Origin: a virus
Lineage: Duplodnaviria; Heunggongvirae; Uroviricota; Caudoviricetes
DNA length: 7,463 bases
Reading direction: 5' to 3' (one strand)
IMG/VR virus record: IMGVR_UViG_2526164628_000018
The notes beneath the pieces are model-generated. The model was not told where the DNA came from and searched no databases. It saw only the letters and a program-made list of their open reading frames with translations. The position numbers and the translations under genes were made by a program. This document shows, one piece after another, positions 1,051 through 7,463 of this stretch (its first letter is position 1; every line of letters starts with the position of its first letter).

Positions 1051-1344
1051 TTAGCCAATCCTTTTCGCGGAGTGGTTGGATTCTGTTGACTCTGGCCCAC
1101 TGTGCGCGAGAGCCGGTGCGATTTGTCCCGCTTCCGGCGCTGTTTTATCTGTCATGAGCCATAGTGTGTATTTTTGGAACTGAGGTGCATTGGTGACCTG
1201 CAACACAACTTGGATGCCAGGGTCTTGATGGCCTCCTTCGTAATTCTTTAGCGTTCCTAACGCTATGCCGCTGATTTCACTGAATTTTGCTTGAGTTAGC
1301 CCTTCCGATTGTCTTATTGCTCTTAATTTCTGTGCGATATTCAT
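1051..1344 (-). CDS. C: P2-type immunity repressor C (97 aa, helix-turn-helix)
   Basis: Small ORF immediately upstream of int on the same strand, as in the P2 C-int operon. It has an N-terminal HTH-like segment (LTQAKFSEISGIALGTLKNYE) and a C-terminal QFQKYTLWLMTDKTAPEAGQIAPALAH block that I recall as conserved in P2 C-like repressors. Its start abuts the divergent promoter region. Confidence 0.8.
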   Translation of the reverse strand: MNIAQKLRAIRQSEGLTQAKFSEISGIALGTLKNYEGGHQDPGIQVVLQVTNAPQFQKYTLWLMTDKTAPEAGQIAPALAHSGPESTESNHSAKRIG

Positions 1345-1480: not shown

Positions 1481-1753
1481 ATGGAAGTTAATGATTATGT
1501 GATTAAGTACCCGCTTGATGCGGTACATGCGGAAAAGTTTGCAGATTTATTGGGTAAACCAAAAACCGCAGTTACAGAAATGATAAAGGCTAACAAGCTA
1601 CCGGTTATCGAGCTTCGAGATCCAAATAAGCCGAAGGCCCGCGCCGGTGAGAAATGGGTTTTCATTCCAGAGTTTAATCGCGCTGTACGTGAGGCGTTTT
1701 ATAACCGACCGGTTGAACAGCGTGATGCATGGCTTTTGTGGATGGGGTTGTGA
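1481..1753 (+). CDS. cox: Cox-like excisionase / transcriptional regulator (90 aa)
   Basis: First gene of the rightward operon, divergent from C, with the length and position of P2 Cox. GAGGG Shine-Dalgarno at 1469-1473, 7 nt before the ATG. Basic, DNA-binding-like composition. Confidence 0.75.
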   Translation: MEVNDYVIKYPLDAVHAEKFADLLGKPKTAVTEMIKANKLPVIELRDPNKPKARAGEKWVFIPEFNRAVREAFYNRPVEQRDAWLLWMGL

Positions 1754-3237: not shown

Positions 3238-3509
3238 GTATTCGTATTGAAATTGGCGAACGTTATGTCGTTACCAGTGACAGCTTTCAGTTTATTCTCC
3301 ACGAGAAAAAGAGAGCGGAAAGCGGTAAAAACGCCGGTCAGGAATGGCTGGCGGTGGTTGGTTATTACCCGAAATTAGGCCAGCTCGTTTCCGGCCTGAT
3401 GCATCACGATATTCTGACCGGAAGCGCAAAATCTTTTGCTGATTTAAACGCGCAGGTTGAGCAACTCAGCAAGCGTTGTTCAGAGGCTTTTGGCTCATAT
3501 GGCCGTTAA
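3234..3509 (+). CDS. Hypothetical early-operon protein (91 aa; P2 orf83-like position)
   Basis: ATG at 3234 overlaps the upstream stop (ATGA). GGAG at 3224-3227 sits 6 nt upstream. Its 3' end overlaps the A start by 11 nt. Confidence 0.6.
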   Translation: MSIRIEIGERYVVTSDSFQFILHEKKRAESGKNAGQEWLAVVGYYPKLGQLVSGLMHHDILTGSAKSFADLNAQVEQLSKRCSEAFGSYGR

Positions 3510-5775
3510 AGCCTCCGGGCGTTTTGTCCCTCCGTCAGCATTTACCGCAGGCACCGGTAAGGCGTTTACCGGTGCTTATGCATGGAACGCGCCACGCGAG
3601 GCTGTCGGGCGCGAAAGACCTCTTACACGTGACGAGATGCGTCAGGTGCAAGGTGTTTTATCCACGATTAACCGCCTGCCTTACTTTTTGCGCTCGCTGT
3701 TTACTTCACGCTATGACTACATCCGGCGCAATAAAAGCCCGGTGCACGGGTTTTATTTCCTCACATCCACTTTTCAGCGTCGTTTATGGCCGCGCATTGA
3801 GCGTGTGAATCAGCGCCATGAAATGAACACCGACGCGTCGTTGCTGTTTCTGGCAGAGCGTGACCACTATGCGCGCCTGCCGGGAATGAATGACAAGGAG
3901 CTGAAAAAGTTTGCCGCCCGTATCTCATCGCAGCTTTTCATGATGTATGAGGAACTCTGCGATGCATGGGTTGATGCGCATGGTGAAAAAGAATCGCTGT
4001 TTACGGATGAGGCGCAGGCTCACCTGTATGGTCATGTTGCTGGCGCTGCACGTGCTTTCAATATTTCCCCGCTCTACTGGAAAAAATACCGTAAAGGACA
4101 GATGACCACGAGGCAGGCATATTCTGCCATTGCCCGTCTGTTTAACGATGAGTGGTGGACTCATCAGCTTAAAGGCCAGCGTATGCGCTGGCATGAAGCG
4201 TTACTGATAGCTGTCGGGGAGGTCAATAAAGACCGTTCTCCTTATGCCAGTAAACACGCCATTCGTGATGTGCGTGCGCGCCGCCAGGCAAATCTGGAAT
4301 TTCTTAAATCGTGTGACCTTGAAAACAGGGAAACCGGCGAGCGCATCGACCTTATCAGTAAGGTGATGGGCAGTATTTCTAATCCTGAAATTCGCCGGAT
4401 GGAGCTGATGAACACCATTGCCGGTATTGAGCGTTACGCCGCCGCAGAGGGCGATGTGGGGATGTTTATCACGCTGACCGCACCGTCAAAGTATCACCCG
4501 ACACGTCAGGTCGGAAAAGGCGAAAGTAAAACCGTGCAGCTTAATCACGGCTGGAACGATGAGGCATTTAATCCAAAGGATGCGCAGCGTTATCTCTGCC
4601 GTATCTGGAGCCTGATGCGCACGGCATTCAAGGATAATGATTTACAGGTTTACGGTTTGCGAGTCGTCGAGCCACACCACGACGGAACGCCGCACTGGCA
4701 TATGATGCTTTTTTGTAATCCACGCCAGCGTAACCAGATTATTGAAATCATGCGTCGCTACGCGCTCAAAGAGGATGGCGACGAAAGAGGAGCTGCGCGA
4801 AACCGTTTTCAGGCAAAACACCTTAACCGGGGCGGTGCTGCGGGATATATCGCGAAATACATTTCAAAAAACATCGACGGCTATGCACTGGATGGTCAGC
4901 TCGATAACGATACCGGCAGGCCGCTGAAAGACACTGCCGCGGCTGTTACCGCATGGGCGTCAACGTGGCGCATTCCGCAATTTAAAACGGTTGGCCTGCC
5001 GACAATGGGGGCTTACCGTGAACTACGCAAATTGCCTCGCGGCGTCAGCATTGCTGATGAGTTTGACGAGCGCGTCGAGGCTGCACGCGCCGCCGCAGAC
5101 AGTGGTGATTTTGCGTTGTATATCAGCGCGCAGGGTGGGGCAAATGTCCCGCGCGATTGTCAGACTGTCAGGGTCGCCCGTAGCCCGTCGGATGACGTTA
5201 ACGAGTACGAGGAAGAAGTCGAGAGAGTGGTCGGCATTTACGCGCCGCATCTCGGCGCGCGTCATATTCATATCACCAGAACGACGGACTGGCGCATTGT
5301 GCCGAAAGTTCCGGTCGTTGAGCCTTTGACTTTAAAAAGCGGCATCGCCGCGCCTCGGAGTCCTGTCAATAACTGTGGAAAGCTCACCGGTGGTGATACT
5401 TCGTTACCGGCTCCCACACCTTCTGAGCACGCCGCAGCAGTGCTTAATCTGGTTGATGACGGTGTTATCGAATGGAATGACCCGGAGGTCGTGAGGGCGC
5501 TCAAAAGCGCATTAAAACACGGCCTGAGAAGACCAAACCGTCAGCAAAGAAACGGAAACCCGTTAAAACCACATGAAATTGCACCATCGGCCAGACTGAG
5601 CCGGTCGGAGCGATTGCAAATCACCCGTATCCGCGTTGACCTTGCTCAGAATGGAATCTTGCCCCAGCGATGGGAGCTTGAGGCGCTGGCGCGTGGGGCA
5701 ACCGTAAATTATGACGGGAAAAAATTCACGTATCCGGTTGCTGATGAGTGGTCGGTTTTTTCAATTAAACAATAA
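3499..5775 (+). CDS. A: P2 gpA-type rolling-circle replication initiation endonuclease (758 aa)
   Basis: First ATG in frame (the track start at 3457 is a TTG). Carries the rolling-circle metal-binding motif in VEPHHDGTPHWHMMLF and the paired active-site tyrosines in GYIAKYISKNIDGY (phiX174 A / P2 A superfamily). Length is close to P2 A and it sits at the end of the early operon. Confidence 0.9.
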   Translation: MAVKASGRFVPPSAFTAGTGKAFTGAYAWNAPREAVGRERPLTRDEMRQVQGVLSTINRLPYFLRSLFTSRYDYIRRNKSPVHGFYFLTSTFQRRLWPRIERVNQRHEMNTDASLLFLAERDHYARLPGMNDKELKKFAARISSQLFMMYEELCDAWVDAHGEKESLFTDEAQAHLYGHVAGAARAFNISPLYWKKYRKGQMTTRQAYSAIARLFNDEWWTHQLKGQRMRWHEALLIAVGEVNKDRSPYASKHAIRDVRARRQANLEFLKSCDLENRETGERIDLISKVMGSISNPEIRRMELMNTIAGIERYAAAEGDVGMFITLTAPSKYHPTRQVGKGESKTVQLNHGWNDEAFNPKDAQRYLCRIWSLMRTAFKDNDLQVYGLRVVEPHHDGTPHWHMMLFCNPRQRNQIIEIMRRYALKEDGDERGAARNRFQAKHLNRGGAAGYIAKYISKNIDGYALDGQLDNDTGRPLKDTAAAVTAWASTWRIPQFKTVGLPTMGAYRELRKLPRGVSIADEFDERVEAARAAADSGDFALYISAQGGANVPRDCQTVRVARSPSDDVNEYEEEVERVVGIYAPHLGARHIHITRTTDWRIVPKVPVVEPLTLKSGIAAPRSPVNNCGKLTGGDTSLPAPTPSEHAAAVLNLVDDGVIEWNDPEVVRALKSALKHGLRRPNRQQRNGNPLKPHEIAPSARLSRSERLQITRIRVDLAQNGILPQRWELEALARGATVNYDGKKFTYPVADEWSVFSIKQ
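5350..5369 (+). other. Candidate origin of replication / gpA nick site inside gene A
   Basis: In P2 and 186 the origin is known to lie inside the 3' part of gene A. The sequence GCGCCTCGGAGTCCTGTCAA matches my unverified recollection of the P2 ori cleavage region. Confidence 0.3.
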
Positions 5776-5922: not shown

Positions 5923-5951
5923 CTTCTATATACGGAGGCTTTCGCTATAAT
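5923..5951 (+). promoter_or_regulatory. Candidate promoter for the methyltransferase gene
   Basis: Perfect -10 TATAAT at 5946-5951 with AT-rich upstream DNA. The -35 at 5923-5928 (CTTCTA) is poor. The predicted start would give a short leader carrying the strong AGGAGG Shine-Dalgarno at 5966-5971. Confidence 0.3.
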
Positions 5952-5976
5952 ACGCGGTCGGTTTTAGGAGGGGATA

Positions 5977-6921
5977 ATGCCAACAGTAGTTTCACTTTTT
6001 TCTGGATGCGGTGGTTCCGATGCGGGGGTTCTGAGAGCTGGCTTTGATGTGCTTATGGCCAACGATATCTTGCCGTATGCGCGCGATGTTTATATTGCCA
6101 ATCATCCAGAAACTGATTACATTTTAGGCAATATTGCTGATGTAACTACTTTTCCTAAATCTGATTTGCTAGTAGGTTGTTATCCATGTCAGGGATTCAG
6201 CCAGGGTGGTGCGCGTAAGGCCGATCGAAAAATTAATACTCTTTATTTAGAGTTTGCTAGAGCTTTAAACAATATAAAGCCTAAAGCTTTTATAGTAGAA
6301 AACGTGTCTGGTATGGTTAGAAAAAACTTCGAGCATTTGTTATCTGACCAGATCAGGGTTTTTACTGAAGCAGGTTATGCTGTTTCAGCAAAAGTTTTGA
6401 ATGCGGCTGAATATGGAGTAGCGCAGGAAAGAAAAAGAATATTTATCGTAGGAATCCGTAATGATTTCAAAGTTAAGTACGAGTTCCCTCAGCCAACTCA
6501 TGGGCCGGCGACTGGCGTCAACTATGTTACTATTAAAGATGCTATAGGGCATTTACCTGAATGGCCAGAAGGTGAATTTTATGATATGGGGTTCCATTGG
6601 TATTATATGTCTCGCAATCGTCGCCAAGATTGGGATCAAATTTCAAAGACAATAGTTGCTAATGCAAGGCATATGCCGTTGCATCCTATCAGTCCTTCGA
6701 TGGAGAAAGTAAGAACTGATGAATGGAGGTTTGTTGAGGATCGGAGAGCTCGCAGATTCAGTTTTCGAGAGGCAGCACTATTACAAGGGTTTGAGGATCT
6801 AGTGTTTCCCGAAACAAATGCTGCAAGTCTTGGCATGAAATACACGGTGGTTGGTAATGCAGTGCCTCCGCCGCTTTTTGAAGCTGTAACGAAGGCATTG
6901 CCAATAGAATTATGGGATTGA
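5977..6921 (+). CDS. DNA (cytosine-5)-methyltransferase (314 aa), complete, with all canonical motifs
   Basis: Motif I FSGCGG (SAM binding), motif IV GCYPCQGFS (catalytic Cys in PCQ), motif VI ENVSGM, motif VIII QERKRIFIVG, a variable region of about 130 aa, motif IX RRFSFREAALLQGF and motif X GNAVPPPL. AGGAGG Shine-Dalgarno 5 nt upstream. Spot counts of 100-bp samples give roughly 31-53% G+C (mean near 40%) against about 60% in one sample of A. Confidence 0.9.
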   Translation: MPTVVSLFSGCGGSDAGVLRAGFDVLMANDILPYARDVYIANHPETDYILGNIADVTTFPKSDLLVGCYPCQGFSQGGARKADRKINTLYLEFARALNNIKPKAFIVENVSGMVRKNFEHLLSDQIRVFTEAGYAVSAKVLNAAEYGVAQERKRIFIVGIRNDFKVKYEFPQPTHGPATGVNYVTIKDAIGHLPEWPEGEFYDMGFHWYYMSRNRRQDWDQISKTIVANARHMPLHPISPSMEKVRTDEWRFVEDRRARRFSFREAALLQGFEDLVFPETNAASLGMKYTVVGNAVPPPLFEAVTKALPIELWD

Positions 6922-6928
6922 TAAGCTA

Positions 6929-7163
6929 TTAAGGCTCTGGATTTAATGTATAAAGTTCTTCTTCAAATTCGCGAAACCAATCAGAGGTAGTTATCGCTTC
7001 CCATTGGTTTGCCTTATCAAGTAGATATATGATCCTCAACCTATCTAATAATAATACACCAGCGGTTGCATGTGTGCTTACCCATTCGCCATTTGCTTCC
7101 CGATAGAAAACAGGCGTGAACATTGTTGATGGATGCTGGAAAGCAATTTGGAAATAGGTGGTC
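6929..7163 (-). pseudogene. 3' fragment (77 codons) of an unknown gene convergent with the methyltransferase, apparently truncated by the IS3 insertion
   Basis: The minus-strand frame is open from the IS terminus at 7164 down to the TAA at 6929-6931. The first in-frame stop upstream lies inside the IS (7169-7171). The only ATG (7121-7123) has no Shine-Dalgarno. The stop is 7 bp from the methyltransferase stop. G+C is low, like the methyltransferase gene. Confidence 0.45.
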
Positions 7164-7463
7164 TGATCCTACCCACGTAATATGGACACAGGCCTAAGCG
7201 AGGTTCTGGTTTTCAAATTGTTCCGGACTGAGGCCGCCACACCAACTGTGCCGCCGCCACCGATTGTAATCACATTCGATATAATTAAACACCGTTGCCC
7301 GCATTATTTCCCGGCTGATAAAGTGTTCTCCATGGATACATTCCACTTTCAGCGAATGAAAGAAGCTTTCCACGCAGGCATTATCGTAGCAGCAACCTTT
7401 TGCGCTCATACTTCCACGCAGATTATGCCGCTTCAGTTGCGCCTGATAATCTGCTGAACAGTA
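7164..7463 (-). mobile_element. IS3-family insertion sequence, right-end portion (terminus at 7164, extends beyond the window)
   Basis: The terminal sequence TGATCCTACCCACGTAATATGGACACAGGCC begins with the 5'-TG of IS3-family inverted repeats. The 3' end of the transposase gene lies about 30 bp inside the terminus. Likely IS3 itself, from memory. Confidence 0.85.
7194..7463 (-). CDS. IS3-family transposase OrfB (DDE/rve integrase core), C-terminal part only; 5' end beyond the window
   Basis: The minus-strand frame is open to the window edge, so the track ORF starting MSAKGCC is only the part after an internal Met. It reads ...[48 protein letters not shown]...[20 protein letters not shown], the conserved C-terminal region of IS3 OrfB (InsF-like). 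Confidence 0.85.

What the first reader, a model, noticed from the sequence alone, without database searches (positions are those of the whole stretch)
5977..6921. Compact, complete C5-methyltransferase carried by a prophage with unknown target specificity
All ten canonical motifs are present in the standard order, with a variable target-recognition region of only about 130 aa. Phage-borne solitary cytosine methyltransferases can protect the phage from host restriction or alter host epigenetics. Its specificity cannot be read from the sequence.
Basis: partly seen in the sequence, partly recalled or inferred. Interest (0 to 1): 0.45.

Follow-up and report, generated by a model that had tools for sequence, protein, structure and literature searches.

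The report
Orphaned GGCC-type prophage cytosine methyltransferase
This is an intact cytosine-5 DNA methyltransferase in a P2-like prophage that very probably methylates GGCC, and it stands alone here only because an IS3 insertion destroyed the nuclease gene it normally protects against.

Summary
Window 5977-6921 (+) encodes a complete 314-aa C5 DNA methyltransferase (Pfam PF00145, E 5e-65) in the gpA-to-portal cargo hotspot of a P2-like prophage.

Two parts of the interpretation do not hold.

1. The specificity can be predicted. The variable region alone matches only M.HaeIII in the PDB. On plasmids it matches methyltransferases paired with HaeIII-family or NgoPII-family (MthTI) GGCC endonucleases, 4 of 4 annotated partners. 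Four of six HaeIII base-contact residues are kept, and a fifth matches MthTI. GGCC is therefore the likely target.

2. The gene is not ancestrally solitary.
- In all 48 complete E. coli genomes that carry it, and in 60 of 60 assessable viral contigs, it lies tail-to-tail with a two-gene operon.
- That operon encodes a ParB/KorB-like protein and a 329-aa winged-helix plus restriction-endonuclease-fold protein.
- In this window an IS3 element starts at 7164 and leaves only the last 77 or so codons of the nuclease gene (6929-7163, minus strand).

The methyltransferase itself is ordinary: 76% identical to phage Wphi Mth and 100% identical to RefSeq WP_001143635. The three-gene cassette appears in a published P2-hotspot census but I found no functional test of it. 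It is the more interesting object, and only a stump of it lies in this window.

The parts
5977..6921 (+). C5 DNA methyltransferase, 314 aa. It is 100% identical at the DNA level to the gene for WP_001143635 in E. coli TW10590. HaeIII/MthTI-type target-recognition region at about residues 160-258.
5946..5971 (+). Probable expression signals: perfect -10 hexamer TATAAT (5946-5951) and Shine-Dalgarno AGGAGG (5966-5971), 5 nt before the ATG.
   Evidence: Read directly. No full consensus promoter in the strict scan, so the promoter is inferred.
6929..7163 (-). 3' remnant (about the last 77 codons, residues about 253-329) of the 329-aa winged-helix plus PD-(D/E)xK-fold nuclease gene. It lacks the conserved D208, D212, Q232 and K243. 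The listed 64-aa ORF 6929-7123 is only its tail starting from an internal Met.
7164..7463 (-). End of an IS3 element, starting with the terminal repeat TGATCCTACCCACG. The transposase orfB C-terminus is on the minus strand. 100% identical to IS3 of the F plasmid. It runs off the end of the window.
3457..5775 (+). P2-type replication endonuclease gpA, the left border of the P2 cargo hotspot.
   Evidence: PMC9122126
1..1011 (-). P2-like prophage integrase. With the repressor (1051-1344, minus strand) and cox (1481-1753, plus strand) it defines the prophage early region.

Best explanation
The gene encodes an active HaeIII-family DNA cytosine-5 methyltransferase. It most likely methylates the inner cytosine of GGCC using S-adenosylmethionine, by the standard mechanism: base flipping, Cys71 attack on C6, Glu108 protonation of N3. 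It arrived as the modification arm of a mobile three-gene cassette of low G+C content: ParB/KorB-like NTP-binding DNA-binding protein, then a winged-helix plus restriction-fold nuclease, with the methyltransferase convergent to both. This cassette sits in the cargo hotspot of P2-like prophages and beside integrases of other elements. The cassette most likely works like a restriction-modification system. The methyltransferase marks the resident DNA, and the ParB-like/nuclease pair attacks unmarked incoming DNA. In this window IS3 has cut off the nuclease gene, and at least separated the ParB-like gene, so only methylation remains. The lysogen's chromosome, and any phage or plasmid DNA that replicates in it, would carry GG(5mC)C marks without any cognate restriction. 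Shown here: gene integrity, family, TRD homology, cassette linkage, IS3 truncation. Inferred: GGCC specificity, in vivo activity, and the restriction function of the partner genes. The stated confidence is for the whole account; by component it is about 0.97 for an intact C5 methyltransferase orphaned by IS3, about 0.75 for GGCC, and about 0.6 for a restriction-like role of the lost partners.
Confidence: 0.6

Rival explanations
1. One reading: a stand-alone phage methyltransferase whose purpose is to protect phage DNA from host restriction, or to alter host epigenetics, with no cognate nuclease.
For: In this window it is the only intact cassette gene. 2 of 67 assessable loci in other species (L070, L077) have the methyltransferase without detectable partners. 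The methyltransferase is far better conserved (64-84% identity) than its partners (25-35%) across clades, as if it were under its own selection.
Against: Linkage to the nuclease and ParB-like genes is essentially complete wherever it can be assessed. The orphan state here has a visible recent cause, IS3, with no sequence decay relative to intact cassettes.
Confidence: 0.12
2. The enzyme is active but recognises a site other than plain GGCC, for example a longer site containing GGCC or a degenerate relative such as GGNCC or RGCY.
For: Only about 38-44% identity to characterised GGCC enzymes in the TRD core. The HaeIII S219 position is His in the whole family. Laboratory evolution shows that HaeIII specificity shifts with few mutations (PMC3526282).
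Against: The residues that read G1, G2 and C4 (R225, S224/R227, R243) are invariant. S219A does not change HaeIII specificity (PMC11879396). All annotated partner endonucleases of TRD relatives belong to GGCC families.
Confidence: 0.2
3. The cassette is not a restriction-modification system. The ParB-like protein and nuclease would serve phage DNA handling (partition-like maintenance, replication, packaging) or a methyl-directed function, and the methyltransferase would supply the mark they read rather than a protective mark.
For: The ParB-like protein has the full ParB/KorB layout, with NTP-binding fold, helix-turn-helix and C-terminal helices. The closest structural matches of the nuclease core include the modification-dependent enzymes MspJI and AspBHI, and the GDxGxD...QC motif resembles the Mrr/MspJI type (the resemblance is from my own knowledge).
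Against: There is no ParA partner. The cassette occurs in the P2 defence hotspot and beside integrases in unrelated elements, and is kept in decayed prophages. The nuclease was never found without the methyltransferase. The convergent M/R layout is typical of type II systems. The nuclease lacks an SRA-like 5mC-binding domain; its N-terminus is a winged helix.
Confidence: 0.2

Closest known systems
M.HaeIII (Haemophilus aegyptius, PDB 1DCT), GGCC C5 methyltransferase
   Same: Same length class (314 against about 330 aa) and same motif order. 37.5% identity end to end, including an ungapped TRD core. The contact residues S224, R225, R227 and R243 are conserved.
   Different: S219 and Q244 are both His here. 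Motif IV is YPCQ, not PPCQ. The partner is not a HaeIII-family endonuclease but a ParB-like protein plus a winged-helix/PD-(D/E)xK protein.
M.MthTI of plasmid pFV1 (MthTI/NgoPII system, GG/CC)
   Same: 39% identity overall and in the TRD core. Five of the six HaeIII-contact positions are identical to this protein, including His at the Q244 position.
   Different: Archaeal plasmid system with a co-directional NgoPII-family endonuclease and no ParB-like gene.
Mth of coliphage Wphi, with gp96 and gp98
   Same: 76-77% identical methyltransferase at the same P2-type hotspot. It is followed by a convergent unknown protein (gp96, 369 aa) and a ParB-N protein (gp98, 401 aa).
   Different: Its partner proteins belong to a second clade, with only about 25-35% identity to the window-type partners. 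None of these proteins has a tested function that I could find.
'DNA_methylase + hypothetical + ParBc' arrangement in the P2-hotspot census of Rousset et al. 2022
   Same: The very proteins of the intact cassette are listed in Table S5: WP_001143635/6, WP_000142507/9 and WP_000559725/6, at least 98 rows.
   Different: It was catalogued only. The terms methylase, ParB and these accession numbers are absent from Table S2, the table of systems tested for defence. The window carries a truncated version.
PD-Lambda-5 (Vassallo et al. 2022) and Druantia type II DruM
   Same: The ParB-like partner matches the first 190 or so positions of PD-Lambda-5_A profiles (E 1.6e-28). The methyltransferase's best PADLOC match is DruM (E 1e-113). 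PD-Lambda-5 is described as a compact prophage RM+Abi system (PMC9519451).
   Different: Only the ParB-N part of the 440-aa PD-Lambda-5_A profile matches, and there is no PD-Lambda-5_B. No DruE, DruF or DruG lies nearby. Neither system is present.

Membership tests
DNA cytosine-5 methyltransferase (PF00145 / TIGR00675) | Full-length match above the curated cut-offs | tested here: met
   PF00145 220.4 bits (cut-off 22), covering profile positions 2-322 of 324. TIGR00675 191.7 bits (cut-off 100.65).
DNA cytosine-5 methyltransferase (PF00145 / TIGR00675) | Catalytic motifs in canonical order: FxGxGG, PCQ with Cys, ENV with Glu, QxRxR, motif IX, GNAVP | tested here: met
   Read from the translation and aligned to HaeIII: FSGCGG 8-13, PCQ 70-72, ENV 108-110, QERKR 150-154, REAALLQGF 264-272, GNAVP 293-297.
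DNA cytosine-5 methyltransferase (PF00145 / TIGR00675) | Transfers methyl to C5 of cytosine in DNA | not testable with these tools
   Needs expression and 5mC mapping.
GGCC-specific (HaeIII/MthTI/NgoPII-type) methyltransferases | TRD homologous to that of characterised GGCC enzymes | tested here: met
   The TRD alone hits only M.HaeIII in the PDB (E 6.8e-6) and M.MthTI on pFV1 (E 2e-12).
GGCC-specific (HaeIII/MthTI/NgoPII-type) methyltransferases | Conservation of the six HaeIII base-contact residues (S219, S224, R225, R227, R243, Q244) | tested here: inconclusive
   Four of six are identical. Q244 is His, as in MthTI. S219 is His, which is unique to this family. S219A leaves HaeIII specificity unchanged (PMC11879396).
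GGCC-specific (HaeIII/MthTI/NgoPII-type) methyltransferases | Methylation of GGCC shown experimentally, for example by HaeIII resistance | not testable with these tools
   No published methylome for a carrier strain was found.
Type II restriction-modification system | An intact cognate endonuclease gene next to the methyltransferase | tested here: not met
   In the window only about 77 C-terminal codons of the neighbouring nuclease gene remain, without its conserved acidic, Gln and Lys residues.
Type II restriction-modification system | In intact relatives: the neighbour belongs to a recognised restriction endonuclease family and cuts the unmethylated site | tested here: inconclusive
Druantia type II (DruM-DruF-DruG-DruE) | DruE helicase with DruF and DruG next to DruM | tested here: not met
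   Neighbours are gpA and the nuclease remnant plus IS3 in the window. In intact relatives they are the nuclease, ParB-like and portal genes.
PD-Lambda-5 | Both PD-Lambda-5_A (full length) and PD-Lambda-5_B present | tested here: not met
   The ParB-like partner of relatives matches only positions 7-196 of 440 in the A profile. There is no B match. Neither gene is in the window.
Dcm-type orphan methyltransferase with Vsr repair | Adjacent or overlapping very-short-patch repair endonuclease gene | tested here: not met
   No such ORF lies between gpA and IS3. NF007772 (Dcm subfamily) scores 38 bits against a cut-off of 710.

The most novel reading that the evidence does not exclude
The methyltransferase is the self-marking arm of an undescribed kind of restriction system. 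In it, a ParB/KorB-like NTP-dependent (possibly CTP-dependent) DNA clamp partners a winged-helix/Mrr-like nuclease to find and cut DNA lacking GG(5mC)C. The system is widespread on prophages and integrative elements of Proteobacteria. In this window it has been disarmed by IS3, which illustrates the expected order of decay: restriction lost first, methylation kept.
Probability: 0.4. Interest if true: 0.7.

Novelty: new member of a known kind. Interest (0 to 1): 0.38.

Why it matters
The gene on its own adds little. It is one more HaeIII-type methyltransferase, already annotated in RefSeq, with a now predictable target.

Two points are of practical interest:
- A lysogen carrying it should have GG(5mC)C-modified DNA. 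That changes its compatibility with McrBC-type hosts and with GGCC-cutting systems, and it affects cloning and methylome interpretation.
- The context points to a widespread three-gene cassette that has been catalogued but, as far as I could find, never tested. It combines a ParB/KorB-like protein with a nuclease and a cytosine methyltransferase. If it is a restriction system, it would extend the roles of the ParB NTPase fold into immunity.

The window shows how such a cassette decays into an orphan methyltransferase.

Tried and rejected
- Druantia type II. The methyltransferase's best PADLOC hit is DruM, but no DruE, DruF or DruG is nearby. Rejected.
- PD-Lambda-5. Only the ParB-N domain of the partner matches. 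Rejected as membership.
- Plasmid partitioning. I first suspected that the 'putative plasmid partitioning system' of Rousset et al. referred to this ParB-like gene. Their Table S5 shows it refers to StbA/Plasmid_stab_B loci. Rejected.
- TET/JBP dioxygenase. I considered that the 329-aa partner might be a 5mC or thymine dioxygenase, because phage ParB proteins activate such enzymes (PMC13229309). Its model shows a winged helix plus a restriction-endonuclease fold, not a jelly roll. Rejected.
- A pointer from Tn-seq. The Pectobacteriaceae essentialome preprint concerns other RM systems. Led nowhere.
- Literature searches for a GGCC 5mC methylome in E. coli prophages, or for a ParB/nuclease/methyltransferase defence system, found nothing relevant.
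- TRD-only search of the phage collection found only the family itself and one Enterococcus phage. Uninformative for specificity.
- The IS3 junction sequence was not found in IMG/VR, nor in any complete E. coli genome. The source genome, and what lies beyond IS3, remain unknown.
- The afdb50 fold library was unavailable.
- The strict promoter scan found nothing upstream of the gene. The -10 element was read by eye.

Full report
**1. Observation**

The ORF at 5977-6921 (+) exists exactly as described.
- It matches the cytosine-5 methylase family over its whole length: PF00145 E 5.2e-65, profile positions 2-322 of 324; TIGR00675 191.7 bits against a cut-off of 100.65.
- The motifs I located appear in the standard order, with the catalytic Cys71 (PCQ) and Glu108 (ENV) intact. 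I located motifs I-VI and VIII-X; I did not delimit the weakly conserved motif VII.
- Two departures from consensus: Asn52 in motif III, and YPCQ in motif IV. YPCQ is invariant in all relatives examined, so it is not damage.
- The variable region between motifs VIII and IX is about 98 residues, rather than 130.
- A perfect TATAAT (5946-5951) and an AGGAGG ribosome-binding site precede the ATG. The strict two-hexamer scan found no full promoter, so the promoter is inferred.

**2. Setting**

The window is the early arm of a P2-like (Peduovirus) prophage: integrase, repressor, Cox, small early genes and the gpA replication endonuclease. In relatives this prophage is integrated beside cpxP.

The methyltransferase lies immediately after gpA. 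This is the gpA-to-portal cargo hotspot described for P2-like phages (PMC9122126; PMC9519451). Its G+C content is 42% against 53% for gpA, which marks it as imported cargo.

The protein is 99% identical to an unannotated ORF of Yersinia phage HQ103 and 76% identical to Mth of coliphage Wphi. The exact sequence is in public collections under the name 'DNA cytosine methyltransferase' and was seen on 128 contigs.

**3. Not ancestrally solitary**

- DNA from the gpA end through the methyltransferase matches E. coli TW10590 at 100% identity, but only up to window position 7163.
- In TW10590, and in every one of the 48 complete E. coli genomes (of 5426) that carry the gene, it is followed tail-to-tail by a 329-aa 'hypothetical protein' and a 373-aa 'ParB N-terminal domain' protein. 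Their genes overlap by 11 nt and are followed by the portal gene.
- Ten further contexts of the exact protein show the same three genes. Two of these are visibly decayed prophages.
- In the window, position 7164 starts the terminal repeat of IS3, which is 100% identical to IS3 of the F plasmid.
- The 64-aa ORF at 6929-7123 (minus strand) is the tail of the 329-aa protein. About 77 codons survive.
- No complete E. coli genome has this junction, and IMG/VR does not either. The methyltransferase is therefore an orphan by a recent IS3 event. It shows no decay relative to intact copies.

**4. How tight and how wide the linkage is**

- Searching one genome per species with the methyltransferase gave 80 loci at 60-77% identity. 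Of the 67 with enough downstream sequence, 65 have a ParB-like gene next door and 41 have a detectable relative of the 329-aa protein.
- Searching IMG/VR with the 329-aa protein gave 62 loci. All 60 assessable ones have the order ParB-like, nuclease, convergent methyltransferase. I found no nuclease without the methyltransferase.
- The module also sits beside integrases in Pseudomonas and Burkholderia elements and in Salmonella 186-like prophages.
- The methyltransferase stays at 64-84% identity even where the partners are only 25-35% identical. There are two partner clades, the window type and the Wphi gp96/gp98 type. I have no explanation for this asymmetry.

**5. What the partners are**

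The 329-aa protein:
- It has no Pfam, NCBIfam or PADLOC family, and is PHROG 3984, 'unknown function'.
- Its AlphaFold model is confident, pLDDT 89.6.
- Foldseek's top hit is MspJI, probability 0.97, E 9e-3.
- Residues invariant across both clades include G207, D208, D212, Q232, C233, K243, D292, R293 and R295. The GDxGxD...QC pattern recalls the Mrr/MspJI D...QxK motif (my own knowledge), but the Lys is displaced. The assignment as a nuclease is probable, not proven.
- The window's remnant lacks all of the residues up to K243.

The 373-aa protein:
- Its model has pLDDT 89.5.
- The ParB box motifs are conserved, NPR and EGNRR.
- It matches only the ParB-N part of PADLOC's PD-Lambda-5_A.

**6. 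Specificity**

Four lines of evidence say otherwise.
- The best solved relative is M.HaeIII (GGCC), aligned end to end including the TRD, at 37.5% identity.
- The TRD alone hits only M.HaeIII among all PDB chains (E 6.8e-6, 62 residues without a gap). The HhaI, Dcm-like and DNMT structures that matched the full-length protein were not hit.
- The TRD alone against plasmids retrieves M.MthTI of pFV1 and others. Ten neighbourhoods were inspected. One had no annotation. Four had an annotated endonuclease next door, and in every one of these it belongs to a GGCC family: NgoPII-family (pFV1; A. haemolyticus) or HaeIII-family (L. amylovorus; Thiothrix). The other five had only hypothetical or unrelated neighbours. 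MthTI recognises GG/CC (PMC11033074).
- The HaeIII residues that contact the bases are S219, S224, R225, R227, R243 and Q244 (PMC11879396 Table 2; PMC3526282). Here S224, R225, R227 and R243 are conserved and invariant across the set. Q244 is His, as in MthTI. S219 is His. R225 is the residue that enforces G at position 1, and S219A does not change HaeIII specificity.

I therefore predict GG(5mC)C with about 0.75 confidence. A related site remains possible.

As a side test, GG(5mC)C would be an R-5mC substrate for McrBC (established knowledge). None of the 48 carrier genomes has K-12-type mcrBC, against 597 of 5378 others. The naive P is about 0.004. Phylogeny is not controlled and K-12 laboratory strains inflate the background, so this is only weakly supportive.

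**7. Mechanism**

- Shown: an intact, expressible HaeIII-family methyltransferase; its membership of a conserved three-gene mobile cassette; disruption of that cassette here by IS3.
- Inferred: the cassette works like a restriction-modification system in which the ParB-like protein and the nuclease act on DNA lacking the mark. Four observations point this way. The layout is convergent. The partner genes overlap. The nuclease is never found without the methyltransferase. The cassette lies in defence hotspots and persists in decayed prophages.
- In this window only methylation can remain. Loss of the restriction arm with retention of the methyltransferase is the order of decay expected for such modules (established reasoning for RM addiction).

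Rivals, with my confidence in each:
- A free-standing anti-restriction or epigenetic methyltransferase: 0.12.
- A non-GGCC specificity: 0.2.
- A non-restriction role for the partners: 0.2.

**8. Comparison with what is known, and novelty**

- The methyltransferase is a new member of a known kind. It is a relative of M.HaeIII and M.MthTI and a homologue of Wphi Mth, and it is already named in RefSeq.
- It is not Druantia II, despite a DruM best hit in PADLOC, and it is not PD-Lambda-5.
- The arrangement 'DNA_methylase + hypothetical + ParBc', with these very accession numbers, is listed at least 98 times in Table S5 of Rousset et al. 2022. None of those terms or accession numbers occurs in their Table S2, the table of systems tested. 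My literature searches found no functional study.
- The cassette may be a new variant of restriction-modification, but the window holds only its methyltransferase and a stump.

**9. Verdict**

The gene itself is ordinary. Its target is predictable (GGCC). Its solitary state is secondary. Its lost partners are the interesting part.

Interest is 0.38 overall. The most novel reading is a ParB-clamp-assisted restriction system disarmed by IS3. I give it probability 0.4 and interest 0.7 if true.

Noticed in passing
window 7164-7463: End of an IS3 element, 100% identical to IS3 of the F plasmid, inserted in the nuclease gene. The window stops inside it, so a simple insertion cannot be told from a deletion of the rest of the prophage.
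   Followed up: partly
L001 10154-12254; L002 4936-7171; L092-L153: The methyltransferase stays 64-84% identical across loci where the ParB-like and nuclease partners are only 25-35% identical. There are two partner clades, the window type and the Wphi gp96/gp98 type. I have no explanation for the asymmetry.
   Followed up: partly
L154 and L159: Two visibly decayed P2-like prophages (truncated terminase; most morphogenesis genes missing) still keep the three-gene cassette intact. This is consistent with selection for the cassette or with addiction.
   Followed up: no
E. coli complete genomes: None of the 48 cassette carriers has K-12-type mcrBC, against 597 of 5378 other genomes. Suggestive of incompatibility between the methylation and McrBC, but not corrected for phylogeny or for the many K-12 laboratory genomes.
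   Followed up: partly
window 5977-6921: The methyltransferase's best PADLOC match is DruM of Druantia type II (E 1e-113), well above the generic type II methyltransferase models. The same methyltransferase lineage may therefore serve several defence systems.
   Followed up: no
L070, L077: Two loci in other species carry a family member (about 65% identity) with no detectable ParB-like or nuclease neighbour within 5 kb. These may be further independent orphans.
   Followed up: no
L165 = NZ_CP119142.1: A 2.17-Mb Neisseria gonorrhoeae record in the plasmid collection is evidently a chromosome labelled as a plasmid. Its TRD-homologous gene is probably M.NgoPII, but the stretch has no annotation there.
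   Followed up: no
window 3457-5775: The mechanical gpA ORF starts at a TTG (772 aa). Relatives are annotated with a 758-aa product that starts 14 codons downstream and overlaps the preceding DUF5405 gene.
   Followed up: no
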